64,000 nucleotides of DNA from an uncultured Alphaproteobacteria bacterium (GTDB taxonomy: Bacteria; Pseudomonadota; Alphaproteobacteria; HIMB59; GCA-002718135): contig CACMKZ010000002.1 in assembly GCA_902614375.1 (NCBI GenBank), positions 14,477 to 78,476 on the forward strand, given 5' to 3'. The stretch's first letter is position 1, and every line of letters begins with the position of its first letter. This document shows, piece by piece, positions 1,127-26,062 of the stretch. Made by a program: the position numbers and the translations under genes. The notes beneath the pieces were generated by a model. That model had not been told where the DNA came from. It saw only the letters and a list, made by a program, of their open reading frames with translations, and searched no databases.

Positions 1127-1128
1127 TA

Positions 1129-4076: not shown

Positions 4077-4084
4077 TTAACTTT

Positions 4085-4759: not shown

Positions 4760-4760
4760 A

Positions 4761-6994: not shown

Positions 6995-8478
6995 TCTAAA
7001 GATATAATTTTATTTCCAATTTTTTTAAAAGGCAATCTTTTTAAATTACTTGTGCAAAGACCTTGGCTATCAATATAAAAACTCTGAGATGCAATTGGAT
7101 CATAAGCATCTTTATGAGACACAGCTGCTTTAATTATTATTAATTTTGCATCTCTAGGATTAATACCTTGTGAAGTTAGTTGGCCTAAATCCATTGGTGG
7201 TGTTTTAATTGATGTTAACAATAAGGTTAATTGATCATTTTTTAATACAGCGGAAGGGCCCATATTAATTTTTGTTCCCATCATTGAAGCTAAGTGAGAT
7301 TGTTTATTTTCAAGTTCAAATCTTCCATCAGAAATTCTTTCTAAATTTGCTTTAATAAAAATAGGTTTACCATGAAATACATCAAATTTTGCACCTATAT
7401 GTAGCTGAACTTCATTATTAATATGAGCTTTATGACAAGCATCTGCAGCTTCAGGATCATTAATTATAGCAACGATCCCGTTATGATTAGTTTGTAATAA
7501 TCGATCTAATAAATCAGTAGCATCTCCTGGTGTTCCTCCACCAATATTATCAGCTGGTTCAATTAGTAAAATAGGTTTTTTAATTTCTGTAATATTATCA
7601 ATCACATTTAGAGCCTCATCCAGAGAATTTTCTTTTGGATAACCATCTTTAATTTTTGCTTCTAGTATATTGACCAATTTATCTAGGTAATTTTTTGCAT
7701 CACTAATTTTTCCTCTGGTACAACAATTTATACTAAAACCACAATCTGGAATATCGGCGTATGAATATCCTGCCATAACATTAATGCATATGATCTCTGG
7801 ATCTTTCTTCTCAATTTTTAATGCTTCTTCTAAAATTGTTTTCATTGGATCATTTGCTGTACCGACACCTGTTGGAGGTAAAATATATTTTGTATCCAGA
7901 TGTACTTGTTTTACATTAGGATCTAGAAAAAGGTCGTTTAAAATTGATGCAGCTTTAACTGCTGTTTCTCTAGAATCACTGTGAGGGTTTTTTCTATATG
8001 CATAAACACATGTACTATACTTAATCATATTTTCTGAAACATTGGCGTGTAAATCTAAAACAGCAACAATAGGAATAGATATATTTTCTTTTGATAAAAA
8101 ACTTTGAATATCTCTGAGAAAATCTCCCTCAAAATCATCATGGTTAGTGCTTACCATAGCTCCATGTAAAACTAAGAAAATAGCATCTAGGTTGTGACAA
8201 GAAACTTTTAATTTTTCAAAGAAATTTTTTTTAAAATAGTTTTCTGATTCTTCATCAACAGTACCTGAGGGTCTGGCTGACATTTGAATTCCTGGAATTA
8301 TATTCCAATTTTGACCAGAAGCATATTCTATAAAACCATCTGTTGGAGATCCATTCCCAGTGTTTTCATTAATTATTTCTTCATCATGAAAAATAATAAA
8401 ATCTTTTAAATTAGTTGGTTCACCTAAAAATGTATGGGTTTCATGATATATACCTGAGAGAAAAATATTTTTAGACAT
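6991..8478 (-). CDS. MlrC-like (M81 family) metallopeptidase
   Basis: 495 aa. N-terminal IFLSGIYHETHTF resembles the MlrC/DUF1485 ..G..HETNTF signature, and size fits the two-domain MlrC family. Family recalled from memory, not searched. Confidence 0.7.
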   Translation of the reverse strand: MSKNIFLSGIYHETHTFLGEPTNLKDFIIFHDEEIINENTGNGSPTDGFIEYASGQNWNIIPGIQMSARPSGTVDEESENYFKKNFFEKLKVSCHNLDAIFLVLHGAMVSTNHDDFEGDFLRDIQSFLSKENISIPIVAVLDLHANVSENMIKYSTCVYAYRKNPHSDSRETAVKAASILNDLFLDPNVKQVHLDTKYILPPTGVGTANDPMKTILEEALKIEKKDPEIICINVMAGYSYADIPDCGFSINCCTRGKISDAKNYLDKLVNILEAKIKDGYPKENSLDEALNVIDNITEIKKPILLIEPADNIGGGTPGDATDLLDRLLQTNHNGIVAIINDPEAADACHKAHINNEVQLHIGAKFDVFHGKPIFIKANLERISDGRFELENKQSHLASMMGTKINMGPSAVLKNDQLTLLLTSIKTPPMDLGQLTSQGINPRDAKLIIIKAAVSHKDAYDPIASQSFYIDSQGLCTSNLKRLPFKKIGNKIISLD

Positions 8479-11852: not shown

Positions 11853-11865
11853 AATTTAATAAAAT

Positions 11866-11917
11866 TATGGTAACTGAAATTAAAAAGATAGCTAGTAAAA
11901 ATTAATTATTTACCATA
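11866..11917. promoter_or_regulatory. 8-bp inverted repeat TATGGTAA / TTACCATA in divergent promoter spacer
   Basis: Arms at 11866-11873 and 11910-11917, separated by 36 bp, inside the 96-bp spacer between the PhyH pair (-) and the PanB-like pair (+). These are the only GG/CC-containing symmetric elements in that spacer. Confidence 0.25.
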
Positions 11918-11948
11918 TTTTCTTAATTAAATTATAAATCATAAGAGA

Positions 11949-12791: not shown

Positions 12792-12793
12792 TT

Positions 12794-13639: not shown

Positions 13640-14452
13640 ATGGAAATTAGTAAATTAGTTAGAAGATTAAATGATAATGAAATATCGCAGTATGAAGATA
13701 AGGGTTATATAAAAGGTCTGCCTGTATTTTCTCAAGGTGGTGTTAAAGATCTTCAAAAACTTTTTTTAGATTTAAGTAATAGACTACCCGCAGGCGTTAA
13801 CATAAATAAAACTAATATGTGGCATAAAGCGAGTAAAAAGTTTTATGATTTAGCCCATACGCCTGCTATTCTTGATTATGTGGAGGATCTTTTAGGACCA
13901 AACTTCTTCCTTTGGGGTGGACAATTTTTTTACAAAGCAGCTAAAAGTAAAGGTGTTGTTCCATGGCATCAAGATTCTCAATATTGGCCTTTAAATCCAT
14001 CAAACTCTGTTACAGTTTGGTTAGCTGTATACGATACAGATAAATCTAATTCAGCAATGAAAATAGTATCAGAAAGCCACAAAACAAAAAGATTTTTACA
14101 TAAAATTAATGACGATAAAAATTATGATTTAAATCAAGAAGTATCTAATGATCAAATTGATAAAGAAAAAATAGTATATATGAATTTAAAAGCTGGTGAG
14201 ATTTCTCTTCATTCAGATGCTCTTTTACATGGTTCTGATGCAAACCATTCAAATAATCCTAGATGTGGAATTACTCTAAGATATTCTCCTTCAAATGTTA
14301 AAGCAGATTTATCAGAGTGGCCTTTTTTTTCTGTTCAAATAGCTAGAGGTGAAACAAATCACTCTTTAAATCCTATTGCTCCTATGCCGAGAGGTGAAGC
14401 AACTCCTGTTAAGGGCTTTCAATTTCATCATGAATTTGAAAGTGAGTGGTGA
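13640..14452 (+). CDS. PhyH-family Fe(II)/2-oxoglutarate dioxygenase (third copy, distinct subfamily)
   Basis: 270 aa. VPWHQDSQYWPL (H-x-D), VTVWLAVYD, and a distal His in LHSDALLHGS. Starts directly after the PanB-like stop. Confidence 0.75.
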   Translation: MEISKLVRRLNDNEISQYEDKGYIKGLPVFSQGGVKDLQKLFLDLSNRLPAGVNINKTNMWHKASKKFYDLAHTPAILDYVEDLLGPNFFLWGGQFFYKAAKSKGVVPWHQDSQYWPLNPSNSVTVWLAVYDTDKSNSAMKIVSESHKTKRFLHKINDDKNYDLNQEVSNDQIDKEKIVYMNLKAGEISLHSDALLHGSDANHSNNPRCGITLRYSPSNVKADLSEWPFFSVQIARGETNHSLNPIAPMPRGEATPVKGFQFHHEFESEW

Positions 14453-14482: not shown

Positions 14483-15562
14483 ATGAAAATAATTGATGAA
14501 ATAATTCTATACGAAAACCCTGATCCTTTACTCGTTAGTAAACAAGGTATTTTCCCGGGTATAGTAAAATTACAGGATAATTCCTTACTTGCATTATTTA
14601 CTATTGGGCAAGCTTTTGATTCTGCTGATCAAAGAACATTTGTTTCAAAAAGTTTTGATGATGGAAGAAGTTGGTCTAAACCAAAACCTTTACATAATCA
14701 TAAATATAAAAATAAGGAAGAATCAGAATCTCTTAAACCACTATTATTACAAAATAATAAATTACTGGCAATAGGTTATGCTTTTGTAAGACCAGATAGT
14801 TTAACACCAATTGTTAATCCTAATACATTTGAAATACTGCCGCTCAATAATAAAATAAGTATTTCTAACGATAATGGTGAAAGTTGGTCTATGCCAGAAA
14901 ATTTTAACGTCAATGAAACACCGCTTGAAATATCAGGGCCGTGTATTCAGTTAAAATCAGGTAGAATATTAGGAGCAGCGCCACCTTTCCATTTAAAAGA
15001 GTCAGATCATTCAGGATGGATAATTTATAGTGATGATGAAGGAGAAAATTGGAGTAAACTATCTGAATTTTATAAATCCAAGGAAGGACATATTTCAACT
15101 TGGGAATGTCGATTATGTGAAACGAACAGCAAAATTATTGTTATTTTTTGGGCTTATGACAATAAAAATAAAAAAAATCTTAGCAACCATGTTGTAATTT
15201 CCGATGATGCTGGAAAAACATTTAATACTGTAATTGATACTAAAATTAGAGGACAAGCGTCTAATGTAATGTTTTATAAAGATGATATAATTTTTACCAT
15301 TCATTGTCACAGAGAAAACCCAACGGGATTAATTCTAAGAAAAGTTGATGTCAGAGATAATAAGTTTTCAATTTTAGATGAAATCAATTTGTTTTCTAAA
15401 GATGGTTTATCAAGTGATGATACTAATATAAGTAAACAGTTTGGCTCGCTAAAGTTTGGTCAACCATCAATTCTTCTTTTAAATAACAATGAATTACTAA
15501 TTTGTTTTTGGTGCATTCATGATAACCAACATATTATTAAAACGTATATCGTAAATATTTAG
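14483..15562 (+). CDS. BNR/Asp-box repeat beta-propeller protein (sialidase-like fold, no signal peptide)
   Basis: 359 aa. Four Asp-boxes (SFDDGRSW, SNDNGESW, SDDEGENW, SDDAGKTF). Size matches small 6-bladed sialidases. No N-terminal signal sequence. The canonical (Y/F)RIP motif was not found (GIFPGIV at the equivalent position). Confidence 0.75.
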   Translation: MKIIDEIILYENPDPLLVSKQGIFPGIVKLQDNSLLALFTIGQAFDSADQRTFVSKSFDDGRSWSKPKPLHNHKYKNKEESESLKPLLLQNNKLLAIGYAFVRPDSLTPIVNPNTFEILPLNNKISISNDNGESWSMPENFNVNETPLEISGPCIQLKSGRILGAAPPFHLKESDHSGWIIYSDDEGENWSKLSEFYKSKEGHISTWECRLCETNSKIIVIFWAYDNKNKKNLSNHVVISDDAGKTFNTVIDTKIRGQASNVMFYKDDIIFTIHCHRENPTGLILRKVDVRDNKFSILDEINLFSKDGLSSDDTNISKQFGSLKFGQPSILLLNNNELLICFWCIHDNQHIIKTYIVNI

Positions 15563-15570
15563 TCATCAAT

Positions 15571-16896
15571 ATGTTCAATCTAATATCTAAAGAAAAAGAA
15601 AAAATGAAAGTAATTAATTATTATCATTTTTCAACTGCACTACAAATGTGTGCTGTTATAGGAACAGTTGCAGCCCCTTTAACATTATATTCTGTAGAAT
15701 TAGGATTAGATCCAGATAGAATTGGTATTTTAGGTAGTCTTATGGCTTTTTGCCAAGTTTTAGCTTTAATTAGTATCCCTTTAACTCTTTATTTTGGTAG
15801 TAAGATTTTATCTATTTGGACATTATTTAGCAGGTACATTTTTCTTTTAATTTTTTTAATTGTTCCGTTTTATCAAGATAATTTAACACTTGTTTTCTAC
15901 TTGTTATTTTTTGCAATGCTTATGTTTTCTATTTTACGTTCATTATCTGAAGCTGCATTTGTGCCTTGGATGCAAGAATTTATTCCAAGAGATGTTAGGG
16001 GTAGAGTTATTGGTATTAATGGAATTATCTGTACACCCTTTGCCTTAGTTGCATCATATGGAATAAAAATCTGGTTGGATAGTAGAGAGGGTTTAGAGAG
16101 ATTTTACCCAGTTTTTTTTATAGCAATAATGCTTGGACTAATATCAGCTCTTTTACTTTTAAAATTAAAAGGGGGAAAAAAGATTAAAGGACGAGATGAT
16201 GATCAAGGTTATTTAAAAAATTTACTTAAAGCAACTAAAGATAAAAATTTTAACTTATTTTTAGTTTCATCAGGAACACAATATTTAGTCATTACCATAC
16301 TAGCTATTTTCTTAACTCTCTATTTTAAAATTAGAATGAATATTCCAAGTGGGGAATTAATTTTTTCTTCAACTTTAATTCTAATTGGTGGGACGTGTAG
16401 TGGTTTAGTAGTTGGAAGAGTAACAGATAGTTATGGTTGTAGGGGTATAAGAGTAATATTCCAAAGTCTACAAATAGTACTATTACTTACTTTACCATTT
16501 ATAAATTCTGATACTCCTTACTTAAGCTACGTAATTGGAATAATTTTCTTTCTCTTTGGTTTCTTAATGTGGGGAAGTGCATCAATAGGTTATATTTTTA
16601 TGCTAAACTATGTACCAAGTAATAACAAAGAATCTTTTATGTCACTTGCTTACAGCTTAGATGGAATAACAGCAGGAGTAACAACAGTGCTAGCTGGTTA
16701 TTTAGTTGTTTGGTTAGATAATAATGAGATTATTGTTTTTGACAAATTACTTGGCAGCTATGAAGTTTTATTTGTTATTTGTGCTTTTATTATAGCAATA
16801 TCTATGAATGCTTTTATTCTTATAAGAGAAGAAGGAGCTATGGGAGTTAGGACTTTTTTGAGACAATTAATTTTTTACAGAAAGCAATTACCATAA
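15571..16896 (+). CDS. MFS-type transporter
   Basis: 441 aa (alternative start M12 at 15604). About 12 hydrophobic spans split by a basic central loop (KLKGGKKIKGRDDDQ). No substrate assignment is possible. Confidence 0.7.
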   Translation: MFNLISKEKEKMKVINYYHFSTALQMCAVIGTVAAPLTLYSVELGLDPDRIGILGSLMAFCQVLALISIPLTLYFGSKILSIWTLFSRYIFLLIFLIVPFYQDNLTLVFYLLFFAMLMFSILRSLSEAAFVPWMQEFIPRDVRGRVIGINGIICTPFALVASYGIKIWLDSREGLERFYPVFFIAIMLGLISALLLLKLKGGKKIKGRDDDQGYLKNLLKATKDKNFNLFLVSSGTQYLVITILAIFLTLYFKIRMNIPSGELIFSSTLILIGGTCSGLVVGRVTDSYGCRGIRVIFQSLQIVLLLTLPFINSDTPYLSYVIGIIFFLFGFLMWGSASIGYIFMLNYVPSNNKESFMSLAYSLDGITAGVTTVLAGYLVVWLDNNEIIVFDKLLGSYEVLFVICAFIIAISMNAFILIREEGAMGVRTFLRQLIFYRKQLP

Positions 16897-16900
16897 AATA

Positions 16901-18019
16901 TTATTCAAATTTTAAACGTATCCAATGTAGATCCATTTTTTTATCATTACCCGCATAATAAAAAACTAAAACTTTCCCACTCTGTAAAACATCAGCATAG
17001 GGCAATCCAAAACTCCATATATTCATGTCAGCTAATAACCCTCCTAGCTCTTTACTATTTTGTTTAATTTTTTTTTGATTAAAAATTGTTACCTCAGAAA
17101 TTTCATCAAAATGAGCATTGAGATTATCTGATACTCTTACTTTTATGCTTTGATTTTTAAATCTATCAACCCATGCTAACACTACCTTACCATCCTTTAA
17201 TAATGCAGGATGAGAAGGTTGATCAGAAATATTTAAATCTTTTGGCTGAGACCATGTTTTACCTTCATCATTACTTATTCTTTGATGAATATTAAGGAAA
17301 GTTTTTTTTGCCGAATCATATGTCCATGCAAAAGACGTAATAGTTCCATTTTTATTTACACCACATCTTAAATCCCAATTAAAAATTTTTCCAGTTTCAT
17401 CACCTGCTGCTAAATAAGGTTTAGACCATGTTTTTCCATTATCAGAAGAACATATGAAAATATTTTTTTGATACCATTTTGATTCATCATAATAATCTTT
17501 ATTATTTTCAATACTCATAATTAATTTTCCATTTGGTAATTTCATAATAGGATTGGTAAGACTTGGTGGACCAATGTCTTTAGGTAGCTGAACTTTTCTA
17601 AGTTTTGACCACGTATTCCCATTATCATAAGAATCTGCAATTAGAATTTTCATTGGAAGACAGCCTTCAGTATTAGCATTAAATAATTCTTTTCCTGGAA
17701 TAGAAGTTCGATCGATCCACAATAATGATGCAATAATATGAGAATCAGAAATTTCAGTTAAATAGCAAAGTTTTAGACTGCCTTTAAGATTATCTATTTT
17801 AACATTTTTAAAAGGCTCCCAAGGTTCTGACCATTTCTCACCTTCATCATCTGATCGAAAAAACTCTATTCCCTCTAATTCAGAATCTTTATTATTTCCA
17901 CCTCTTGCAGTGGCAAGAATAGATCCATTACTAAGAGAAACAAATGATGAAAAAGTATAGCATGCTTTATTTGAATCAATTTTTGCAGAACATAAGATGC
18001 CTGAAGAATCTATTTTCAT
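16901..18019 (-). CDS. BNR/Asp-box repeat beta-propeller protein (sialidase-like fold, no signal peptide)
   Basis: 372 aa. Four Asp-boxes (SDDEGEKW, SYDNGNTW, SSDNGKTW, SNDEGKTW). No signal peptide. The RIP position reads YTFSSFV. Confidence 0.75.
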   Translation of the reverse strand: MKIDSSGILCSAKIDSNKACYTFSSFVSLSNGSILATARGGNNKDSELEGIEFFRSDDEGEKWSEPWEPFKNVKIDNLKGSLKLCYLTEISDSHIIASLLWIDRTSIPGKELFNANTEGCLPMKILIADSYDNGNTWSKLRKVQLPKDIGPPSLTNPIMKLPNGKLIMSIENNKDYYDESKWYQKNIFICSSDNGKTWSKPYLAAGDETGKIFNWDLRCGVNKNGTITSFAWTYDSAKKTFLNIHQRISNDEGKTWSQPKDLNISDQPSHPALLKDGKVVLAWVDRFKNQSIKVRVSDNLNAHFDEISEVTIFNQKKIKQNSKELGGLLADMNIWSFGLPYADVLQSGKVLVFYYAGNDKKMDLHWIRLKFE

Positions 18020-18030: not shown

Positions 18031-18516
18031 TTATTTTTTTTTCTTAGGCCATCCCATTAAAAGTTTGGCATTTTTTTCTTCTTCAATAGCCTTTTCTTTA
18101 TCTTTAAAAATTTTCACTACGCATTGAGGTTTATTACGATCAATTACATCATAAACTAGATGGTGATCTACTTTATCAATAAGTGGGCCTATCCAACCAG
18201 CACAATGATCGCAGTATCTTTTCATAGGCTCTGCATCATTATCCAAAACTTTACTAAGACTTGGACAAACATTCATTCTTAATTCTAATTTTTCGTCATC
18301 TAATTTTAAATCCATATCACAGTTTTCTTCAATTCTAATATGATCCCAGTATTCATACATCCCCTTCAAACCTTTTTCTTTGAATAACTTTAAAGTATGT
18401 TTTTCTTGATTTTTACTGATTTCCAACCAGTAAGCCTCTAGATGTTCTTCTCCTTGATCTTCGAGAAACTTAAAAACTTCGTTATAGAAACGGGTAAAAT
18501 GATCACTAGGTATCAT
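18031..18516 (-). CDS. Hypothetical small protein with conserved C-x17-C-x29-C pattern (paralog B)
   Basis: ORF runs to 18543, but the ATG at 18516 (MIPSDHF...) gives an ATGA overlap with the upstream stop and is preferred. Cys in NVCPSL, RYCDHC and PQCVV. No family recognised with confidence. Confidence 0.5.
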   Translation of the reverse strand: MIPSDHFTRFYNEVFKFLEDQGEEHLEAYWLEISKNQEKHTLKLFKEKGLKGMYEYWDHIRIEENCDMDLKLDDEKLELRMNVCPSLSKVLDNDAEPMKRYCDHCAGWIGPLIDKVDHHLVYDVIDRNKPQCVVKIFKDKEKAIEEEKNAKLLMGWPKKKK

Positions 18517-19013
18517 GCTCTTTTCCTTATAGTTTGTCTGCATGCTGCTTCTCCTAAAATTTCAGTTTTAATTTCGTATGGAGTATCTTCAGCCAGTGCT
18601 TCATTTGTTTTAATAGTTTGATCACAAAAGTTAGGTGAAACATTTCCAACCAACTTTCTTACATGTTCATATGCTGTACAACGATTAACCGTTAAAATAA
18701 TTTCTTCATCATTAATAGAAATATTATAATCAGCATTTTCCCGATCAAAAAAATGCTGCCAATGTTTAGCTAACATTTTGATATTCCCTTTTTTAATATG
18801 ATCTTTGATATCTTTATAAACATCATTACCAACTTTTTTGAAGATATCGTTCATGGTATCGATACCATATTTATTAATTATAAACTCAATAGTTGTATTT
18901 GTAGCACCGTGAAAATCCATGTGGACATTGCCACCATCGTTGTAACGAAGTTTTTGATCTAAATTATTTTTATTCACTTTTATATACAGATTTTCCAGCA
19001 ATATAGGTTTCAC
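18513..19013 (-). CDS. Hypothetical small protein with conserved C-x17-C-x27-C pattern (paralog A)
   Basis: 166 aa. Cys in NRCTAY, NFCDQT and AACRQT align with paralog B. The annotated start overlaps nagA by 44 nt; an alternative start is M32 at 18920. Confidence 0.5.
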   Translation of the reverse strand: MKPILLENLYIKVNKNNLDQKLRYNDGGNVHMDFHGATNTTIEFIINKYGIDTMNDIFKKVGNDVYKDIKDHIKKGNIKMLAKHWQHFFDRENADYNISINDEEIILTVNRCTAYEHVRKLVGNVSPNFCDQTIKTNEALAEDTPYEIKTEILGEAACRQTIRKRA

Positions 19014-20148
19014 TAATCTCCAAATTATCTTTTTGTAAAAGAATAAAATCAGCTAATTTATTTTTTTCAATACTTCCCATAATATTTTCTAAACCTATTA
19101 CTCTTGCTGGCACTAAACTTGCAGCAATAGCAACTTGGGATAAAGTTTTTTTTGAAAACTTATAATAATTTTGTAATGCTTCAATAGAAGTTAATGATGA
19201 TCCAGCTAATAAACCATTGTAAGTAGAAGCTTTCCCTTTTTCAACTGTACACCATCGTCCAGGAAAAAATTCAAACTTAACAGGAACTGGAGAACCAGCT
19301 CCCTTAACAGAATCCGTTTCTAAGAATACTCTATCAGTTGGTAAGTGAGATAGTAGTTCAACTAATTGTGGGTGAACATGAATACCGTCACATATAACTC
19401 CAAGAGCAATTCGTGTTTCAGCAATTAAAGCATCAGTTAGAGATAATACATGAACACCTGTGTCATCTGGTGGATAAGTTGGAAGTGCATCATACATATG
19501 TGTTACAGCATCAACCCCCCAATCTGCAAATTTAGGCACATCAATTGGATTAGCTCCACTGTGACCCAAATGAATTGAAATTTTTTCTTTTTTAAGTCTC
19601 TTTATAAATTCTTCTGAGCCATTCATTTCTGGCGCTAGTGTCAGAGCTTTTAGTTTACCCTGGCATGCATCTAATAATTCTTCGGCTAAAGGTACAGAAG
19701 GATTGCGAAGATTTTTAGGATCATGAGCCCCAGGTAATGCAAAACAAGGTCCTTCTGAATGAATTCCTAAAACACGTGCGCCCTCTTTAGCTTTATCAAT
19801 GTCATTTGATAGTGCGTTTAATAAAGTTTTAGTTTTTTCAGGTGGCAAGCATGGTGTTGACGGTAAAAAACCTGTTACTCCTACTGATGGTAATATTTTA
19901 GAATTATCAACAGTACAATTTTCTTCTGCATGACCATACAAATAATTTAAAAAACCATGTTGCAGTACATCGATCATTCCTGGAAAGATAAAGTTATTCT
20001 GACCATCAATTATTTTCCATTCATCAGAAATATTTTCATTCGGACTCAAAATATCAACAATTTTATCGCCATCAATTAGAAGATCTTTATCTTCTTCTCC
20101 ATATGGAGTTACCAAAGTAACATTTGTAAATCTTTGTTTGTGTTGCAT
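18970..20148 (-). CDS. nagA: N-acetylglucosamine-6-phosphate deacetylase
   Basis: 392 aa amidohydrolase. PGMIDVLQHG, GIHSEGPCF, HLGHSGA, THMYDAL, ICDGIHVHP and ETDSV occur in NagA order. The first metal motif lacks HxH, as in E. coli-type NagA. Confidence 0.8.
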   Translation of the reverse strand: MQHKQRFTNVTLVTPYGEEDKDLLIDGDKIVDILSPNENISDEWKIIDGQNNFIFPGMIDVLQHGFLNYLYGHAEENCTVDNSKILPSVGVTGFLPSTPCLPPEKTKTLLNALSNDIDKAKEGARVLGIHSEGPCFALPGAHDPKNLRNPSVPLAEELLDACQGKLKALTLAPEMNGSEEFIKRLKKEKISIHLGHSGANPIDVPKFADWGVDAVTHMYDALPTYPPDDTGVHVLSLTDALIAETRIALGVICDGIHVHPQLVELLSHLPTDRVFLETDSVKGAGSPVPVKFEFFPGRWCTVEKGKASTYNGLLAGSSLTSIEALQNYYKFSKKTLSQVAIAASLVPARVIGLENIMGSIEKNKLADFILLQKDNLEISETYIAGKSVYKSE

Positions 20149-20218: not shown

Positions 20219-20983
20219 ATGAAAGACCAATGTGTATGTATAACTGGATCTACACATGGTATAGGATTTGGAATTGCAGAGGCATTTGCTAAAAAAGGAG
20301 CAAAAATTGTCATTAATTCTCATGAAAAAGATAATGGCGCTTTAGATAAGCTCAAGAAATTGACTGAGTGTTATTTTGTACAATCAGATCTATCAACAAT
20401 TGATGGAAATAAAAAACTAATTCAAGAAGCAAAAGATAAACTTGGAAAAATAGATACTCTTATAAATAATGCTGGTACTTTTCAAGATACTGATTTTGAA
20501 AATATTAATAAAGAAAAATTTGATACAACATTTAATCTGAACGTTAGAGGTTATATGTTTACATCTCAAGAATTTGTAAAACAAATTTCAAATGATCAAA
20601 ATAATAGTAGTATTGTTTGTATTGGTTCCTCTAACTCCTTAGCAGCTGAAAAAAACAGCGTCATGTATGATACTTCCAAAGGAGCTGTACTAATGATGAT
20701 TAAATCAATGGCTGTAAGTTTAGCATCAAAGAACATACGTGTTAATGGTATTGGTCCAGGAATACTCGAAACACCACTGACTACTGCAGGTCTAAATAAA
20801 GGAAACAATAAAAAAGTAATCAGTGCACAAATTCCACTTGGAAGAATTGGGGAGCCATCAGATATCGGTGGAGCAGCTGTATTTTTAGCGTCTGAAGAAG
20901 CAAAATATATTACAGGACAAATGTTATACGTCGATGGTGGAATTTTAGCTAATCAATTAAATTGGGATGAGTCACTTTTATAA
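20219..20983 (+). CDS. Short-chain dehydrogenase/reductase (SDR)
   Basis: 254 aa. TGSTHGIG cofactor motif, NNAG, catalytic YDTSK. Confidence 0.85.
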   Translation: MKDQCVCITGSTHGIGFGIAEAFAKKGAKIVINSHEKDNGALDKLKKLTECYFVQSDLSTIDGNKKLIQEAKDKLGKIDTLINNAGTFQDTDFENINKEKFDTTFNLNVRGYMFTSQEFVKQISNDQNNSSIVCIGSSNSLAAEKNSVMYDTSKGAVLMMIKSMAVSLASKNIRVNGIGPGILETPLTTAGLNKGNNKKVISAQIPLGRIGEPSDIGGAAVFLASEEAKYITGQMLYVDGGILANQLNWDESLL

Positions 20984-21006
20984 AAAAATTTAAAAAAGGA
21001 GAGAAT

Positions 21007-21396
21007 ATGATTAAAATAATAACCACTGGTGCAAAATCAGTTTTACCTTTTAGCCCTGCAATTAAAGCAGGTGATTTTGTATATGTTTCAGGGCAAGCTT
21101 CCGTTGATCGAGAAAATGGTTCAATCATTGAAGGTACATTTGAAGAAGAAATGAGACGTTCAATTGAAAATTTAGAAGTGATTTTAAAAGAAGCAGGTCT
21201 GACCTTGGATCATGTTATTAATGTTAAGGGCTACGTAGCTGATCAAAAAGATTTAAAAGAATATAATAAAATTTATCCTGAATATTTTAAAGATCCACTA
21301 CCAACAAGAAGCACAATTGTAAAAGTGTTGCCTACTTTCTTAAAATTTGAGCTTGATTGTGTTGCTTATGCGCCAAATACTAGACAAGAAGGATAA
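21007..21396 (+). CDS. ridA: RidA/YjgF-family reactive enamine/imine deaminase
   Basis: 129 aa. GDFVYVSGQ, TLDHVI, P.RSTI.V. Strong SD (AAGGAGAG) upstream. Confidence 0.85.
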   Translation: MIKIITTGAKSVLPFSPAIKAGDFVYVSGQASVDRENGSIIEGTFEEEMRRSIENLEVILKEAGLTLDHVINVKGYVADQKDLKEYNKIYPEYFKDPLPTRSTIVKVLPTFLKFELDCVAYAPNTRQEG

Positions 21397-22677
21397 TTAA
21401 AAATAAGTTAATATTCCATCAAGAACATTATAGTCTTCATCAACAACTGGAATAAACTTCCATTTATCAAATGCTGTGCATGGATGTGAAATACCAGAAC
21501 AAATCATATCCCCTACCTGCCATTGATGATTATCAGCAAGTTTAACAAAGGCATGCTGATCATTTGTGCTAAATATTTCTGCTTCACCAATATCTAAGAA
21601 ACCTTCACCAGGTCTAAATCTTTTTATTGGTTTTGGTAAACCTGAATCATATGGAGCATCTCGTTTTCCCATAGTTAGAAAAGCAAGATTATTTTCAGGA
21701 ATGGATTGTACATAGGACCAAATTTCAAGAGCTGGTTGCAGAGATTGATCCCATTGTCTATTGGAATCACTTTTAGCTGTCTCAAGTGCATCCAAATAAG
21801 GTCCATGATCATGTGTAATATAACATCCGCTTCGTAATAGTACTTTAATTGGAACACTAAGTTTAATTTTTGAAAATCTTTCCCCCACAATATCAAAATG
21901 AGTTGATCCACCAGCAGTAATTAATAATTCATTTAGATGAGAGTAATAATTTGAAGGAATATCATTAATAATATCTTCAATCTTTGAACAAAAATCATGC
22001 ACAGCATCTGATCCTTTCATTGCTACAGCTGCTATACCCTCGTATGAAGAAATACCTGCGAAAGTAAAATTCTTTGATGAATCCTCTCCAATTATATTAA
22101 CAAGTTTTAAAAAAACTTCTTTTTTGCGTATACCTGTCCGTCCATTTTCAGCACCTACTTCGGGCAATAAATTTATTGGATTGGTTAAATTTTGATCACC
22201 AAGATTTTTTTTTATATTTGAGAACTGCTCAATTGAATCAACAAAACAATAGAAAGAAAAATTTTTATTTTGATTAATATATGATGCTATTGTTTCTAAA
22301 TGTGATTTACCTAAAAGTTGATTAGCAAGTAAAACTTTTTTTATACCAAAATCAAACATAACTTGAATTTGATTAATAGCACCAGCTGTAATGCCCCATG
22401 CTCCATGTTTTATCTGCTCAGAAAAAATCTGAGGGGCCATGGTAGTTTTACCATGAGGAGCAATATCTAGATTGTGTTTTTCTAAATAATTAGAAAAAGT
22501 TTTTAAATTATGAAGATAATTTTTTTGTTTTAATACCATTAATGGCATAGGCATATCTTCCTTCAAAATATTCCATTTTTTATTTTTTAATTCTTTTAGT
22601 GGAAATGGTTCACTTGAACCTGGAATACCTTTGGTTCGCCTATCTAAAATAGTATTTTGAATTTCACTTAAATCCAT
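21397..22677 (-). CDS. Fold-type III PLP enzyme, D-serine dehydratase-like / D-threonine aldolase-like (alanine racemase N-domain family)
   Basis: 426 aa. PLP-Lys context APHGKTTMAP, and a C-terminal D-Ser-dehydratase-like domain (..GISHPCTAFDKW..). Its stop abuts the ridA stop with 0 nt between them. Confidence 0.72.
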   Translation of the reverse strand: MDLSEIQNTILDRRTKGIPGSSEPFPLKELKNKKWNILKEDMPMPLMVLKQKNYLHNLKTFSNYLEKHNLDIAPHGKTTMAPQIFSEQIKHGAWGITAGAINQIQVMFDFGIKKVLLANQLLGKSHLETIASYINQNKNFSFYCFVDSIEQFSNIKKNLGDQNLTNPINLLPEVGAENGRTGIRKKEVFLKLVNIIGEDSSKNFTFAGISSYEGIAAVAMKGSDAVHDFCSKIEDIINDIPSNYYSHLNELLITAGGSTHFDIVGERFSKIKLSVPIKVLLRSGCYITHDHGPYLDALETAKSDSNRQWDQSLQPALEIWSYVQSIPENNLAFLTMGKRDAPYDSGLPKPIKRFRPGEGFLDIGEAEIFSTNDQHAFVKLADNHQWQVGDMICSGISHPCTAFDKWKFIPVVDEDYNVLDGILTYF

Positions 22678-23501
22678 TAAGAATTAATTTCTTCAAACTG
22701 ACTAACTAAATTCTCTGCATAATCAGATAATGCAATTACATCAGCACCAATATTTAGAAGATTGTATCCCATATCAATATAATTTTTTGCAACTCCGGGT
22801 CCACCTGGAGTAGCTGCAATTTTATTATTTTTTCTTGCTACTTCTGCAACTCTTTTTCTTGCACTTACAACATCAGGATGATCCATTTGACCTGGAACAC
22901 CTAGTGAAAGAGAATAATCTCCAGGCCCAAAAAATAGTGCATCTACACCTTCCATTTCAGCAATGGCTTCGACATCATTAATTACTTCAGGTGTTTCAAT
23001 CTGATAGATTACTAATCTTTCTTGATTAGCTTGTTTAATATACTCTGCCATATCAAGCTTTGTATATTTTCCATCATTGTTACCACCATCAACTCCTCTT
23101 TTGCCAATAGGAGGAAATTTTGTAAACTCCTCAATCTCTTTCGCATCTGCTAAACTTTTTATTTGAGGTATGATTAATCCCGTACAATCAACTTCTAAAC
23201 CTCTAATATAATTACTGTAGCTACCTCTATTAACACGAAGAAGAGAGTCAACATCATATATCTTAGCAGCATTACTCTGATTTTCAGCTTGATTGTAATC
23301 AAGTGATCCATGTTCCATACAAAGCCAGATGGCATCTGGTTGTGCTAAGGCAAAAATTTCTGCTACTTTAATATCAACTGTGTTGCATTTTAATATTGTT
23401 GCAACTTTCCCTGCACTAGTCTTTCTTTTTACTCTGCTCTTTCGAAAGGTGTTAAATGGTTTTTTTCCATTATTTGTTGTTGTTTCATCATATTTAGTCA
23501 T
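22677..23501 (-). CDS. HpcH/HpaI-family class II (metal-dependent) 2-oxoacid aldolase
   Basis: 274 aa. LCMEHGS, LLRVN, GLIIPQI.S...A, FPPIGKRG, IYQIET and GPGDYS blocks are typical of HpaI/GarL/YfaU aldolases. Confidence 0.8.
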   Translation of the reverse strand: MTKYDETTTNNGKKPFNTFRKSRVKRKTSAGKVATILKCNTVDIKVAEIFALAQPDAIWLCMEHGSLDYNQAENQSNAAKIYDVDSLLRVNRGSYSNYIRGLEVDCTGLIIPQIKSLADAKEIEEFTKFPPIGKRGVDGGNNDGKYTKLDMAEYIKQANQERLVIYQIETPEVINDVEAIAEMEGVDALFFGPGDYSLSLGVPGQMDHPDVVSARKRVAEVARKNNKIAATPGGPGVAKNYIDMGYNLLNIGADVIALSDYAENLVSQFEEINS

Positions 23502-23516: not shown

Positions 23517-24308
23517 TTATTTTGCAGTATATCCACCATCAACAGCAATAATTGTTCCAGTCAAATAAGCTGATGAGTCTGATGCTAAAAAAATTATTGG
23601 GCCTTTTAAATCAGTACTATTAGCCATTCGTCCTAGCTGGGTTCTTTTACTATAATTTTCAACAAATCTGTCTGGATGAGAAGGAACTTTAAATCCTCCT
23701 GGAGCTAAACAATTTACTCGAATATTAAAAGGACCTAACATACTTGCTGCCCATCTTGTAAAATTGTGCATGCCTCCCTTTTCATAAAAATATAATGGAG
23801 AAGTAGCAGGGGTGAAGTCTGTACCTTCATAATTACCATTTTCTACACCAACAGTACCCATCATTGATCCAATATTTATAATAGATCCAGATTTATTTTT
23901 TTTCATTCCTTCAGCAAACATATTTGTAATTTTAAATAATGCTGATGCATTTATTCTTAAACTTTTATCAAAGTCATCTAGACTATTGTCCCAACCTAGA
24001 CTGCCATGCTCTCTGGAAACTGCATTATTTATCAAGACATCACATTTTCCACTTTTCTCAATAATGTCATTGTATAATTTTTCGATTGAGTCATCCTGAG
24101 ATAAATCTAATTGTAATGCAGTAACTTTATAGCCTCGTTTTGTTTCTTCTTCTGCTACTTGTTGTAAACTTTCAAAATTTCGTGAAGCTATATATGTATC
24201 TGCTCCAGCTTCAGCTAATGCTTCCACTATTTGTCTCCCGTAAAGTCCAGCACCTCCAGTAACAAGTGCAACTTTACCTTTTAAAGAAAAACTTTCTAAA
24301 ACATTCAT
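23517..24308 (-). CDS. Short-chain dehydrogenase/reductase (SDR)
   Basis: 263 aa. VTGGAGLYG, NNAV, a Y-x3-K in YFYEK, C-terminal VDGGYTA. Confidence 0.8.
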   Translation of the reverse strand: MNVLESFSLKGKVALVTGGAGLYGRQIVEALAEAGADTYIASRNFESLQQVAEEETKRGYKVTALQLDLSQDDSIEKLYNDIIEKSGKCDVLINNAVSREHGSLGWDNSLDDFDKSLRINASALFKITNMFAEGMKKNKSGSIINIGSMMGTVGVENGNYEGTDFTPATSPLYFYEKGGMHNFTRWAASMLGPFNIRVNCLAPGGFKVPSHPDRFVENYSKRTQLGRMANSTDLKGPIIFLASDSSAYLTGTIIAVDGGYTAK

Positions 24309-25268: not shown

Positions 25269-25281
25269 TAATTAATATCAC

Positions 25282-26061: not shown

Positions 26062-26062
26062 A

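What the first reader, a model, noticed from the sequence alone, without database searches (positions are those of the whole stretch)
14483..18019. Two cytoplasmic BNR/Asp-box propeller proteins flanking an MFS transporter, both apparently lacking the sialidase RIP arginine
Seen in sequence: both proteins (359 and 372 aa) carry four S-x-D-x-G-x-x-W Asp-boxes and are the size of small single-domain sialidases. Neither has a signal peptide. At the position where sialidases carry (Y/F)RIP I read GIFPGIV and YTFSSFV, so the first arginine of the catalytic triad seems to be absent (by-eye alignment, uncertain). They bracket an MFS transporter, and the second is last in a nagA-led operon. Established knowledge: exo-sialidases need the Arg triad to bind the sialate carboxylate. 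Some small sialidases are cytoplasmic. Anhydro-sialic acids are handled by an MFS transporter plus a Gfo/Idh/MocA oxidoreductase (E. coli YjhB/YjhC, R. gnavus NanOx), and Gfo/Idh/MocA genes also occur in this island. Inference: these may be intracellular glycoside- or sialate-derivative-processing enzymes with non-canonical chemistry, rather than classical sialidases.
Basis: partly seen in the sequence, partly recalled or inferred. Interest (0 to 1): 0.55.

Follow-up and report, generated by a model that had tools for sequence, protein, structure and literature searches.

The report
Re-tooled sialidase-fold enzymes in SAR11
Two cytoplasmic proteins in a SAR11 marine bacterium have the sialidase fold but have lost most of the residues that make a sialidase work, and they sit at the centre of a conserved, uncharacterised gene cluster for breaking down amino-sugar acids, so they probably carry out an undescribed reaction.

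Summary
The ORFs at 14483-15562(+) and 16901-18019(-) encode 359- and 372-aa single-domain six-bladed BNR_2 propellers. Each has four Asp-boxes and no signal peptide. They flank an MFS transporter, and the second closes a nagA-like operon.

Profile alignment to verified GH33 sialidases shows that both lack the RIP arginine, the second arginine and the nucleophilic tyrosine (Gln327 in A, Leu339 in B). Only the blade-5 arginine and the blade-4 Glu/Asp persist. They are therefore not classical exo-sialidases.

The active-site face is nevertheless almost invariant within each family, with a different residue set. The closest solved structure is Dfer_1899 (5hx0), of unknown function. I found no characterised relative.

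The window comes from a Pelagibacteraceae (SAR11) genome. The same gene cluster recurs in Devosia, Maritalea, Hyphomicrobiales and Rhodobacteraceae.
- BNR-A, MFS transporter, BNR-B, two V4R-like small proteins, NagA-like deacetylase.
- SDR, RidA, D-serine-deaminase-like enzyme, HpcH aldolase, further oxidoreductases.
- nanA/nanE/nanK are often nearby.

Best reading: these are catalytically re-tooled enzymes that process an imported acidic amino-sugar derivative for the aldolase and deaminase module. The exact reaction is unknown.

The parts
14483..15562 (+). BNR-A: 359-aa cytoplasmic six-bladed sialidase-fold propeller. RIP-Arg replaced by I23/F24, second Arg by Y225, Tyr nucleophile by Q327. 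Retained or new invariant residues: D46, R103, E208, R210, R277, and a His cluster (H176, H274, H276).
14651..14674 (+). BNR-A Asp-box 1 (SFDDGRSW)
14864..14887 (+). BNR-A Asp-box 2 (SNDNGESW)
15029..15052 (+). BNR-A Asp-box 3 (SDDEGENW)
15200..15223 (+). BNR-A Asp-box 4 (SDDAGKTF)
15571..16896 (+). MFS transporter (441 aa), presumed importer of the substrate. Its orthologues in Devosia and Hyphomicrobiales carry a C-terminal HEAT-repeat extension.
16901..18019 (-). BNR-B: 372-aa cytoplasmic six-bladed sialidase-fold propeller, 26% identical to BNR-A. RIP-Arg replaced by T22/F23, second Arg by W232/Y234, Tyr nucleophile by L339. Invariant: D45, D103-R104, E171, K174, D216-x-R218, Q267, R286, Y355.
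17831..17854 (-). BNR-B Asp-box 1 (SDDEGEKW)
17609..17632 (-). BNR-B Asp-box 2 (SYDNGNTW)
17426..17449 (-). BNR-B Asp-box 3 (SSDNGKTW)
17252..17275 (-). BNR-B Asp-box 4 (SNDEGKTW)
18031..18543 (-). Small protein 2 (170 aa), a paralogue of small protein 1. Function unknown. Co-conserved with BNR-B and the NagA-like gene.
18513..19013 (-). Small protein 1 (166 aa as called; the start is uncertain). Weak MsvR and ATC_hydrolase similarity. UniRef names the Devosia orthologue a 4-vinyl reductase (V4R) domain protein.
18970..20148 (-). NagA-like amidohydrolase (392 aa; TIGR00221 200.8 bits, below the 225.65 cut-off), first gene of the operon that ends in BNR-B. It is one of the two most constant partners of BNR-A (39 of 41 loci).
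13640..14452 (+). PhyH-family Fe(II)/2-oxoglutarate dioxygenase directly upstream of BNR-A. PhyH genes recur next to both BNR families.
20219..20983 (+). SDR1, which passes the NCBIfam glucose 1-dehydrogenase subfamily cut-off (226.6 > 215 bits)
21007..21396 (+). RidA-family imine deaminase
21397..22677 (-). PLP-dependent D-serine-deaminase-like enzyme (PDB 3gwq, E 2.6e-81)
22677..23501 (-). HpcH/HpaI class II pyruvate aldolase. Homologues lie directly next to BNR-B relatives in unrelated phyla.
23517..27067 (-). Oxidoreductase block: SDR2 (gluconate-5-DH/KduD-like), GFO1, SDR3, GFO2 (IolG-like). Co-conserved with the cluster.
6991..8478 (-). MlrC-like M81 metallopeptidase, found near BNR-A in 31 of 41 related loci
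212..5642 (+). Opp/Dpp-type ABC transporter components, NanA (equivalog-level hit), NanE and a ROK kinase: the canonical sialic-acid catabolic genes of the same island

Best explanation
BNR-A and BNR-B are distant paralogues (26% identity). They belong to an uncharacterised branch of the sialidase-fold (Pfam BNR_2) superfamily in which the catalytic pocket has been rebuilt.

They are soluble cytoplasmic enzymes. They are not exo-sialidases of the GH33 type: they cannot form the tyrosyl-sialyl intermediate, and they lack two of the three carboxylate-clamping arginines.

Together with the MFS importer and the NagA-like deacetylase they form the uptake and first-processing part of a conserved alphaproteobacterial catabolic supercluster.

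My committed mechanism is inferred, not shown:
1. The MFS transporter imports a small acidic amino-sugar derivative. Candidates are a ketoside, or an anhydro or unsaturated form of an N-acylated ulosonic or aldonic acid.
2. BNR-A and BNR-B convert it by hydrolysis or hydration that uses water directly rather than a covalent Tyr intermediate. Candidate catalysts are the conserved carboxylates D46/E208 in A and D45/D103/E171/D216 in B. The anionic group would be held by relocated basic residues: R103, R210 and R277 in A; R104, K174, R218 and R286 in B.
3. The free sugar acid is deacetylated by the NagA-like enzyme.
4. It is deaminated by the D-serine-deaminase-like enzyme plus RidA, or perhaps by a PhyH dioxygenase.
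5. It is cleaved by the pyruvate aldolases (HpcH, NanA).

The confidence of 0.5 is for the whole statement. The part that they are re-tooled non-GH33 enzymes of this cluster I hold at about 0.85. The specific water-based hydrolysis or hydration step on an imported ulosonate or aldonate derivative I hold at about 0.35.
For: Shown:
- Fold. The AF2 models are confident (pLDDT 90.2 and 94.3). Foldseek gives TM about 0.7 to GH33 sialidases and 0.71-0.77 to 5hx0.
- In-register profile-profile alignment to GH33 has probability 99.5-99.7% for A and 98.4-99.2% for B.
- Loss of catalytic residues. There is no Arg at the RIP site in 47 A, 49 B or 81 superfamily sequences. The R237 equivalent is Y225 (A) or W232/Y234 (B). 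The Y334 equivalent is invariant Q327 (A) or L339 (B), and H/L/Q across the superfamily. A has no conserved Tyr anywhere in blade 6.
- Retained. E218 corresponds to E208 (A) and D216 (B), with high alignment confidence. The blade-5 Arg is R277/R286 (80 of 81 superfamily sequences) and lies at the end of strand 2 of blade 5, as R304 does.
- The invariant polar residues cluster at the strand ends that form the sialidase active-site face. This argues for a working pocket.
- Context. Of 41 BNR-A loci with at least 4 kb on both sides, NagA-like occurs in 39, RidA 37, DSD-like 32, MlrC 31, HpcH 30, MFS 29 and BNR-B 22. The cluster is syntenic from SAR11 to Devosia and Hyphomicrobiales.
- A cluster variant without SDR1, DSD-like, RidA and the V4R genes still keeps A, MFS, B, NagA-like, PhyH and HpcH.
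- BNR-B relatives in Caldilineaceae and other metagenome contigs sit directly beside HpcH aldolases and among sugar-acid oxidoreductases.
- A BNR-A paralogue abuts NanA plus an Opp-type ABC transporter in Devosia.
- NanA, NanE and a ROK kinase are in the window.

From the literature:
- The set deacetylase + D-amino-acid-type deaminase + RidA is the proven logic for the amino-sugar acid GlcNAc1A (PMC9537276).
- A sialidase that loses its Tyr can still hydrolyse with inversion. PDB 2ber is the Y370G mutant bound to beta-Neu5Ac (title). The mechanistic reading of that entry is from my own knowledge.
Against: - No substrate or activity is known for any family member. NCBI and UniRef call them only 'sialidase family protein'.
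- No coordinates were available to me, so I could not check that the relocated Arg/Lys and carboxylates converge on one pocket.
- Alignment confidence is low around the R304 and Y334 columns. Those two assignments rest on strand topology and on the absence of any conserved Tyr.
- The Asp aligned with the sialidase acid/base (D46/D45) is conserved in A and B but not across the wider superfamily (D18, E14, N11, G9 of 81). It may not be catalytic.
- BNR-A often occurs without BNR-B (19 of 41 loci), so the two need not act in sequence.
- The contexts fit a lactonase role almost as well.
- BNR-A lacks the superfamily core residues D103, E171 and K174 and has a His cluster instead. It may use quite different, perhaps metal-dependent, chemistry.
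Confidence: 0.5

Rival explanations
1. Propeller lactonases. SDR1 (a glucose-1-dehydrogenase-type SDR) or the GFO/SDR enzymes oxidise GlcNAc or ManNAc (the latter from NanA) to the N-acetylhexosaminono-lactone. BNR-A and/or BNR-B hydrolyse the lactone. NagA-like, DSD-like plus RidA, and HpcH then give pyruvate plus glyceraldehyde. This would be a non-phosphorylative counterpart of the Ong pathway.
For: - SDR1 passes the glucose 1-dehydrogenase subfamily cut-off and its best PDB relatives include glucose 1-dehydrogenases.
- No conventional lactonase is found in the core cluster.
- BNR-B-only contexts are typical non-phosphorylative sugar-acid clusters: dehydrogenases, an enolase-superfamily dehydratase and an HpcH aldolase.
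- Six-bladed propeller lactonases (SMP30/gluconolactonase) exist (my own knowledge).
- The superfamily core of Asp/Glu/Asn residues could bind a metal.
Against: - A cluster variant lacks SDR1 but keeps BNR-A, MFS, BNR-B and NagA-like.
- Some BNR-B contexts already encode an Amidohydro_2 enzyme, a family that includes sugar lactonases.
- The tight pairing with a transporter and an AraC regulator suggests a first step on the imported compound rather than a mid-pathway step.
- Pfam reported no SGL/SMP30 match.
- Two different lactonases for one pathway would need explaining.
Confidence: 0.2
2. Ordinary small cytoplasmic GH33 exo-sialidases whose catalytic residues were simply misaligned.
For: - BNR_2 hits above threshold, four Asp-boxes and the size of small sialidases.
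- Nearly all best structural matches are sialidases.
- nanA, nanE and nanK are in the same island.
Against: - Two independent alignment methods agree on the RIP site, and no Arg occurs there in 177 sequences.
- BNR-A has no conserved Tyr anywhere in blade 6. In BNR-B the nearby Y341 is replaced by Phe in 12 of 49 members.
- Only 12-17% identity to sialidases.
- No NCBIfam sialidase model matches.
Confidence: 0.03
3. Non-catalytic pseudo-sialidases: ligand-binding, sensing or scaffolding proteins, for example partners of the V4R-like proteins or of the transporter.
For: - The canonical catalytic residues are lost.
- They are co-conserved with two V4R-like small proteins, a domain thought to bind small molecules.
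- The MFS orthologue in Devosia carries a cytoplasmic HEAT-repeat extension that could dock a partner.
Against: - About 20 invariant polar or charged residues lie at active-site-face positions in each family, and the core is conserved down to about 21-25% identity.
- The genes are embedded in enzyme operons, next to aldolases, in several phyla.
- V4R genes are absent from many loci that keep both BNR genes.
Confidence: 0.07
4. Metal-dependent eliminases (lyases), at least for BNR-A. The His/Gln cluster binds a metal, and the enzyme cleaves a uronate- or ulosonate-containing disaccharide by beta-elimination, as cytoplasmic propeller lyases do. BNR-B then hydrates or hydrolyses the unsaturated product.
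For: - BNR-A has invariant H176, H274, H276, Q258 and Q327, and nearly invariant H170, where BNR-B has none of these.
- SDR2 resembles KduD/gluconate 5-dehydrogenase, which acts downstream of unsaturated uronates.
- The comparison with PL22 oligogalacturonide lyase (three His plus one Gln binding Mn) is from my memory only.
Against: - No sequence or fold match to any polysaccharide lyase in the PDB searches.
- No KduI-type isomerase was seen among the conserved cluster genes I could label.
- I could not check whether the His residues are close in space.
Confidence: 0.1

Closest known systems
GH33 exo-alpha-sialidases (human NEU2, PDB 1snt; Micromonospora viridifaciens, 1eur/1eus; Clostridium perfringens NanH)
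   Same: - Single-domain six-bladed beta-propeller of about 360-380 aa with four Asp-boxes, and Pfam BNR_2 membership.
- Foldseek TM about 0.7.
- The blade-4 Glu (E218) corresponds to E208 in A and D216 in B. The blade-5 Arg and the blade-5 Gln (NEU2 Q270) are kept.
- Some small sialidases are also cytoplasmic.
   Different: - No RIP arginine, no second arginine and no tyrosine nucleophile.
- The C-terminal Glu that braces the first Arg is Tyr in B. It is Glu in most A members but His in this window's copy.
- Only 12-17% identity.
- New invariant residues appear: R103/R104, R210/R218, the W-x-Y-D motif, and a His cluster in A.
- The GH33 double-displacement mechanism is not possible.
Dfer_1899 of Dyadobacter fermentans (PDB 5hx0), a structural-genomics protein of unknown function
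   Same: - It is the best sequence and structure match for both proteins: profile E 2.5e-13 (A) and 2.3e-9 (B), TM 0.71-0.77.
- It also has F-P instead of R-I-P.
- It shares the A-F-x-R-P-D motif (R103), the blade-4 Glu and the blade-5 Arg with BNR-A.
   Different: - Only 18-19% identity.
- It lacks R210/R218 and Q267 equivalents.
- It may keep an Arg at the second-arginine position (F-L-R-T).
- Its function is unknown, and I found no paper that cites the entry.
Intramolecular trans-sialidase with a 2,7-anhydro-Neu5Ac transporter and NanOx/YjhC oxidoreductase (Ruminococcus gnavus; E. coli YjhB/YjhC)
   Same: The logic is similar: a transporter, cytoplasmic conversion of a modified sialic acid, then the aldolase. 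An MFS transporter and GFO/IDH/MocA genes are present, and nanA/nanE/nanK are in the same island.
   Different: - In that system the propeller enzyme is extracellular and has the full GH33 catalytic set. The cytoplasmic converter is the oxidoreductase, not a propeller.
- The GFO genes here are not YjhC orthologues by NCBIfam.
Ong pathway for oxidised chitin (OngB deacetylase, OngC D-amino-acid-type deaminase, OngD RidA, KdgK) in Pseudoalteromonas (PMC9537276)
   Same: The downstream module here has the same chemical logic for an N-acetyl-2-amino-2-deoxy sugar acid: amidohydrolase, PLP D-serine-deaminase-like enzyme, RidA, then a 2-keto-3-deoxy-acid enzyme.
   Different: - The deacetylase here is NagA-like, not D-aminoacylase-like.
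- An HpcH aldolase replaces the KDG kinase.
- The glycosidase of the Ong system is a periplasmic GH20 enzyme, not a cytoplasmic BNR propeller.
- The inner-membrane importer is MFS here, SSS there.
Sialidase-like Kdo hydrolases of Francisella and Helicobacter (recalled from memory, not tested here)
   Same: Precedent for sialidase-fold proteins that act on a different 2-keto-3-deoxy sugar acid and work with a small partner protein.
   Different: Those are membrane-associated and act on lipid A-core. I made no sequence comparison.

Membership tests
Pfam BNR_2 (PF13088) / sialidase-fold superfamily | HMM score above the gathering threshold (31.4 bits) | tested here: met
   43.8 bits (A) and 49.5 bits (B)
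Pfam BNR_2 (PF13088) / sialidase-fold superfamily | Six-bladed beta-propeller with Asp-box repeats | tested here: met
   AF2 models with pLDDT 90 and 94 consist almost entirely of beta-strands (about 21-22), which fits six four-stranded blades. Foldseek TM is about 0.7 to sialidases. Four Asp-boxes in each protein.
GH33 exo-alpha-sialidase | First arginine of the triad (R-I-P motif, blade 1) | tested here: not met
   I23/F24-P25 in A and T22-F23-S24 in B. No Arg at this site in 47, 49 and 81 aligned sequences.
GH33 exo-alpha-sialidase | Second arginine (end of strand 2, blade 4; NEU2 R237) | tested here: not met
   It aligns to the invariant W223-x-Y225-D226 in A and W232-x-Y234-D235 in B, with moderate alignment confidence.
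GH33 exo-alpha-sialidase | Third arginine (end of strand 2, blade 5; NEU2 R304) | tested here: inconclusive
   Invariant R277 (A) and R286 (B; 80 of 81 in the superfamily) lie at the end of strand 2 of blade 5. They are 3 columns from R304 in the hhalign output, where confidence is low.
GH33 exo-alpha-sialidase | Nucleophilic tyrosine (start of strand 1, blade 6; NEU2 Y334) | tested here: not met
   Invariant Q327 (A) and L339 (B), and H/L/Q across the superfamily. No conserved Tyr in blade 6 of A. Y341 of B is Phe in 12 of 49 members.
GH33 exo-alpha-sialidase | Glutamate partner of the tyrosine (blade 4; NEU2 E218) | tested here: met
   E208 in A, with high alignment confidence. D216 in B via the A-B profile alignment. 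D69/E9 of 81 in the superfamily.
GH33 exo-alpha-sialidase | General acid/base aspartate on the blade-1 loop (NEU2 D46) | tested here: inconclusive
   D46 (47 of 47) and D45 (48 of 49) align with D46. The site is a loop, and the column is not conserved across the wider superfamily.
GH33 exo-alpha-sialidase | Sialidase activity on sialosides | not testable with these tools
   Needs an enzyme assay
Intramolecular trans-sialidase / anhydrosialidase | Full GH33 catalytic set | tested here: not met
   The same catalytic residues are missing. The HMMER match to 4x47 covers only the N-terminal 60 residues and places T-F-P against R-I-P.
Dfer_1899-like proteins (PDB 5hx0) | Closest sequence and structure relative. 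No functional definition exists. | tested here: inconclusive
   Profile E 2.5e-13 and 2.3e-9, TM 0.71-0.77 and 18-19% identity. It shares some motifs but not all, and its function is unknown.
SMP30/gluconolactonase-type propeller lactonases | Membership of the SGL/SMP30 sequence family | tested here: not met
   The Pfam scan at E up to 0.01 lists no SGL hit. This does not exclude an analogous activity.

The most novel reading that the evidence does not exclude
BNR-A and BNR-B found two new enzyme families on the sialidase fold, either new glycoside-hydrolase or hydratase families. They would use a Tyr-free mechanism with relocated arginines to open or release non-canonical nonulosonic or amino-sugar acids inside the cell. 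This would be the entry step of a previously unrecognised, largely non-phosphorylative sialic / amino-sugar-acid catabolic pathway shared by SAR11, roseobacters and Devosia.
Probability: 0.25. Interest if true: 0.8.

Novelty: new variant of a known kind. Interest (0 to 1): 0.55.

Why it matters
SAR11 is the most abundant heterotroph in the surface ocean, and its streamlined genome keeps few dispensable genes. Here it carries a roughly 27-kb island that is conserved down to gene order with Devosia and other Alphaproteobacteria.

If the two propellers catalyse a new reaction on sialic-acid-like or oxidised amino-sugar compounds, three things follow:
- A new enzyme family on a well-studied fold would be defined.
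- About 190 clusters of 'sialidase family proteins' at 50% identity (E up to 1e-30) could be annotated correctly instead of being counted as sialidases in metagenomic surveys.
- A pool of marine dissolved organic nitrogen and carbon used by SAR11 would be identified.

The case is directly testable, because cultivable carriers exist (Devosia rhodophyticola, D. algicola, Oceanicola granulosus).

Tried and rejected
- hhalign of the family profiles against the single NEU2 sequence aligned only one Asp-box. I then built a GH33 reference alignment from NEU2 (checked against 1snt) and eight plasmid-borne sialidases. That alignment worked.
- Model coordinates are not exposed. No superposition or pocket geometry could be computed.
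- Literature searches for 5hx0/Dfer_1899, PF13088/BNR_2, sialidase-like proteins with MlrC, sialidase-fold proteins lacking the arginine triad, and glucosaminate/mannosaminate pathways found nothing about this family.
- tblastn of both proteins against the plasmid collection found nothing.
- The promoter and terminator scan gave no more sites than shuffled sequence, so it says nothing about operon structure.
- NCBIfam has no model for either BNR protein, the MFS transporter or small protein 2, and only sub-threshold chance-level hits for small protein 1.
- Long superfamily members were checked for informative domain fusions. One is a secreted protein with two BNR_2 propellers, one has an N-terminal Barstar domain, and the others show only BNR domains. 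None gives a functional clue.
- The YjhC/NanOx analogy was considered and not adopted, because the GFO genes are not YjhC-like.
- An AmpG/muropeptide reading of the MFS transporter was considered and dropped, because NCBIfam gave no hit for it at all.

Full report
**What is there.** The coordinates coincide with three ORFs.
- BNR-A: 14483-15562(+), 359 aa.
- An MFS transporter: 15571-16896(+), 441 aa.
- BNR-B: 16901-18019(-), 372 aa.

Both BNR proteins exceed the Pfam BNR_2 gathering score (43.8 and 49.5 bits against 31.4). The middle gene is MFS_1. NCBIfam has no model for either BNR protein.

Each protein has four S-x-D-x-G-x-x-[WF] Asp-boxes: A at residues 57, 128, 183 and 240; B at 56, 130, 191 and 249. 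Residue shuffles give 0.01-0.02 per protein.

Three things point to cytoplasmic proteins. Neither has an N-terminal hydrophobic stretch. In the AF2 models residue 2 is already part of a propeller strand. Homologues have the same lengths.

The two proteins are distant paralogues. BLASTP gives 26% identity and E 3e-24. The profile-profile comparison gives 99.9% probability over the full length.

BNR-B ends the minus-strand run nagA-like, small gene, small gene, BNR-B, in which genes overlap or are 11 nt apart. The stop codons of the MFS gene and BNR-B converge with 4 nt between them. The consensus promoter and terminator scan was uninformative.

**Fold.** AF2 models built on 47- and 49-sequence alignments are confident: pLDDT 90.2 and pTM 0.90 for A, 94.3 and 0.92 for B.

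Foldseek against the PDB puts Dfer_1899 of Dyadobacter fermentans first for both (5hx0, a structural-genomics entry of unknown function; TM 0.71-0.77, 18-19% identity). Dozens of GH33 sialidases follow at TM about 0.7 and 11-17% identity. Profile searches of PDB sequences give the same order: 5hx0 at E 2.5e-13 and 2.3e-9, sialidases at 1e-7 to 1e-5. I found no paper that mentions the PDB entry 5hx0.

**Are the sialidase catalytic residues there?** I verified a recalled human NEU2 sequence against 1snt (one mismatch). I then fetched eight bacterial sialidases from plasmids.

In that reference alignment the NEU2 residues R21, E218, R237, Y334 and E355 are conserved in 9 of 9 sequences and R304 in 8 of 9. 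That NEU2 residues R21, R237, R304, D46, E218 and Y334 are the catalytic set is from my own knowledge of the NEU2 literature.

hhalign of the family profiles to this alignment gives in-register matches: probability 99.7% and 99.2% in global mode, 99.5% and 98.4% in local mode. Blade-shifted alternatives score lower. The results, position by position:

| GH33 residue (NEU2) | BNR-A | BNR-B | Alignment confidence |
|---|---|---|---|
| R21 (R-I-P) | I23/F24-P25 | T22-F23-S24 | high |
| D46 (acid/base) | D46 (47 of 47) | D45 (48 of 49) | loop, uncertain |
| E218 | E208 | D216 (via the A-B alignment) | high |
| R237 | W223-x-Y225-D226 | W232-x-Y234-D235 | moderate |
| R304 | R277, 3 columns away | R286 | low |
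| Y334 | Q327 (invariant) | L339 (invariant) | low |
| E355 | E in 43 of 47, His346 in this window | Y355 | not assessed |

Notes on the table:
- R21: HMMER and hhalign agree to within one residue.
- R304: although the alignment is weak here, R277 and R286 sit at the end of strand 2 of blade 5, the same topological place as R304.
- Y334: BNR-A has no conserved Tyr anywhere in blade 6. In BNR-B the nearby Y341 is Phe in 12 of 49 members.

Two of three arginines and the nucleophile are gone. The GH33 double-displacement mechanism is excluded.

**Is the pocket dead?** No. Each family has about 20 invariant polar or aromatic residues. They fall at the strand ends that form the sialidase active-site face.
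- A: Q21, D46, K85, Y99, R103, E149, H176, E208, R210, W223, Y225, Q258, H274, H276, R277, Q327, W343, Q349.
- B: K44, W101, D103, R104, E118, C120, E171, N173, K174, Y176, W215, D216, R218, W232, D266, Q267, D285, R286, Y355.

An exhaustive HMMER search of 1.84 billion representatives with the B profile finds 194 clusters at E up to 1e-30, 690 at 1e-10 and 4184 at 1e-3. I aligned 76 full-length representatives with A, B and three A-family homologues, 81 sequences in all at 21-47% identity to B. The conserved core in that alignment is as follows.
- F-P, never Arg, at the RIP site.
- D103 (66 of 81) and R104 (48 Arg plus 11 His).
- E171 (70) and K174 (68).
- W215 (70), D/E216 (78) and R218 (68).
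- W232 (75) and D235 (64).
- Q267 (79) and R286 (80).
- G338 (81) and P340 (74).
- Y/W355 (79).

The column of the sialidase tyrosine holds H, L or Q. Three invariant arginines are shared by A and B: blade 2, blade 4 strand 1 and blade 5. This suggests that an anionic substrate is still bound, but differently. That is an inference, because I had no access to coordinates.

BNR-A departs from the superfamily core. It has no D103, E171 or K174 equivalents and carries a His cluster instead. The two proteins therefore probably do different things.

**Organism and distribution.** A scan of one genome per GTDB species with the A profile returns 20 near-identical loci (94-100% identity). They come from GORG single-cell genomes labelled uncultured Alphaproteobacteria and 'Pelagibacteraceae bacterium AG-337-I02'; one is 100% identical. 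The window is about 30% G+C. It is therefore a SAR11 genome.

More distant A homologues (35-64% identity) are almost all alphaproteobacterial. They occur in other Pelagibacteraceae, Planktomarina, Sulfitobacter, Roseicyclus, Oceanicola granulosus, Maritalea, many Devosia and Hyphomicrobiales. B relatives reach further, to Caldilineaceae and other Chloroflexota.

**Context.** The Devosia rhodophyticola chromosome is syntenic with the window. Its gene order is:
- MlrC, PhyH, AraC regulator;
- BNR-A, MFS (with a HEAT extension), BNR-B;
- two small proteins, amidohydrolase;
- SDR, a 331-aa GntR-like protein, RidA, D-serine-dehydratase-like enzyme.

The same order occurs in a 63%-identical marine contig and in Hyphomicrobiales, where NanE and a ROK kinase are also adjacent.

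I called ORFs in the fetched loci and labelled them by BLASTP against a reference set. Among 41 BNR-A loci with at least 4 kb on both sides the counts were as follows.

| Neighbour | Loci (of 41) |
|---|---|
| NagA-like | 39 |
| GntR-like 331-aa protein | 39 |
| RidA | 37 |
| DSD-like | 32 |
| MlrC | 31 |
| HpcH aldolase | 30 |
| SDR1 | 29 |
| MFS | 29 |
| Small proteins 1 / 2 | 26 / 25 |
| PhyH | 25 |
| BNR-B | 22 |

Further points from the locus comparisons:
- A second cluster type lacks SDR1, DSD-like, RidA and the small proteins. It keeps PhyH, AraC, BNR-A, MFS, BNR-B, NagA-like, HpcH and the SDR2/GFO1/SDR3/GFO2 block.
- In several Devosia genomes a 45-48%-identical BNR-A paralogue lies next to a NanA-like lyase, an Opp-type ABC transporter and an epimerase, immediately beside the same oxidoreductase, HpcH, DSD-like, RidA and NagA-like block.
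- Outside the Alphaproteobacteria, BNR-B relatives sit directly upstream of HpcH aldolases. Their other neighbours are Zn-ADH, aldo-keto reductases, GFO/IDH/MocA, class III aminotransferase, Amidohydro_2, DUF455, enolase-superfamily, PhyH and Opp-type ABC genes.

In the window itself:
- 3147-4076 passes the NCBIfam equivalog cut-off for N-acetylneuraminate lyase (290.4 > 281 bits). NanE and a ROK kinase follow it.
- SDR1 passes the glucose 1-dehydrogenase subfamily cut-off.
- The DSD-like enzyme matches the 'D-serine deaminase' 3gwq at E 2.6e-81.
- The nagA-like gene scores 200.8 bits on TIGR00221, below its 225.65 cut-off.
- The two small proteins are paralogues. UniRef calls the Devosia orthologue of small protein 1 a 4-vinyl-reductase (V4R) domain protein, and there are weak MsvR and ATC_hydrolase hits.
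- The island ends near 27.8 kb. The rest of the window is housekeeping.

**Interpretation.** The downstream module is a deacetylase, a D-amino-acid-type PLP deaminase, RidA and a 2-keto-3-deoxy-acid enzyme. This reproduces the experimentally proven logic for the amino-sugar acid GlcNAc1A in Pseudoalteromonas (PMC9537276). Here a NagA-like deacetylase and a class II aldolase replace OngB and KdgK.

Four observations bear on the role of the BNR proteins.
- Both BNR families are repeatedly adjacent to pyruvate aldolases (NanA, HpcH). The substrates of these aldolases are 4-hydroxy-2-oxo acids, the open-chain form of ulosonic acids.
- The sialidase fold is the classical binder of such acids.
- The most constant partners of BNR-A include the NagA-like enzyme and a transporter.
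- BNR-A and BNR-B stay in the cluster when SDR1 is lost.

I therefore favour a first-processing role on the imported compound. This would be hydrolysis or hydration of a ketoside, or of an anhydro or unsaturated derivative of an N-acylated sugar acid, with water as the nucleophile. A sialidase mutant without the tyrosine still turns over and yields the beta-anomer (2ber, Y370G with beta-Neu5Ac; title; the mechanistic reading is from my own knowledge).

A lactonase role in an oxidative N-acetylhexosamine route fits the contexts nearly as well and is the main rival. Lesser rivals are a metal-dependent lyase role for BNR-A, a non-catalytic role, and, now very unlikely, an ordinary sialidase. None of these chemistries is shown. 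What is shown is the fold, the loss of the GH33 machinery, the conservation of a different pocket, and the gene neighbourhood.

**Comparison with known systems, and novelty.** The proteins are members of Pfam BNR_2. They fail three defining catalytic features of GH33. The closest relative, 5hx0, has no known function. Public annotation calls the homologues 'sialidase family protein' or 'exo-alpha-sialidase', which is misleading. A metagenomic survey has already noted nanE in a Pelagibacter species (PMC10570557), so sialic-acid genes in SAR11 are not new in themselves. The new elements are the re-tooled propellers and the conserved supercluster around them.

I rate this a new variant of a known kind, of moderate interest. 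It is a well-defined and testable enzymological unknown in the ocean's most abundant heterotroph, but its function is so far inferred only from context.

Noticed in passing
window 212-5642: Opp/Dpp-type ABC transporter genes followed by NanA (passes the NCBIfam N-acetylneuraminate lyase equivalog cut-off, 290.4 > 281 bits), NanE and a ROK kinase. This is a canonical sialic-acid catabolic set in a Pelagibacteraceae genome. No nagB was seen in the island.
   Followed up: partly
window 18031-19013 (-): Two overlapping paralogous small genes (170 and 166 aa, 25% identical over a 61-residue local match) with no significant Pfam hit. UniRef names the Devosia orthologue of one of them a 4-vinyl reductase (V4R) domain protein. 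They are co-conserved with BNR-B and the NagA-like gene in one cluster type and absent from the other. Function unknown.
   Followed up: partly
window 20984-21006, compared with L001, L011 and L013: A 331-aa protein with a weak GntR-type HTH lies between SDR1 and RidA in 39 of 41 related loci. It is missing here: only 23 nt separate the two genes. This fits the loss of regulators in streamlined SAR11 genomes.
   Followed up: partly
window 6991-14452: A dense block: MlrC-like M81 peptidase, a DHDPS-like protein, a class IV aminotransferase, three PhyH dioxygenases and two tandem PanB-like (ketopantoate hydroxymethyltransferase family) paralogues. The PanB pair, the DHDPS-like gene and the class IV aminotransferase accompany the cluster only in SAR11-type loci. 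Their substrate is unknown.
   Followed up: partly
window 36767-43690 (-): A two-partner secretion pair: a ShlB/FhaC-type outer-membrane transporter (560 aa) and a 1746-aa exoprotein with a TPS domain, FG-GAP repeats and a YDG domain. This is an unexpectedly large secreted protein for a streamlined SAR11 genome.
   Followed up: no
window 33833-34903: An N6/N4 DNA methyltransferase with a C-terminal RAMA domain (CcrM-like), next to RNase HII.
   Followed up: no
window 15518-15520 (BNR-A residue 346): The window's BNR-A has His where 43 of 47 family members have Glu. This is the position aligned with the sialidase Glu that braces the first arginine. It is a lineage-specific change in the pocket.
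   Followed up: partly
protein P0348, not in the window: A 953-aa secreted relative with a signal peptide carries two BNR_2 propellers separated by a middle region of about 200 residues that has no Pfam match. The C-terminal propeller has motifs that resemble those of BNR-A. So not all members of this clade are cytoplasmic, and two different propellers can be fused.
   Followed up: partly
window 27155-27811: An RraA-like (aldolase / oxaloacetate decarboxylase family) gene marks the right-hand end of the catabolic island. Homologues also occur inside the Devosia superclusters, between the ABC transporter and the BNR-A paralogue.
   Followed up: no
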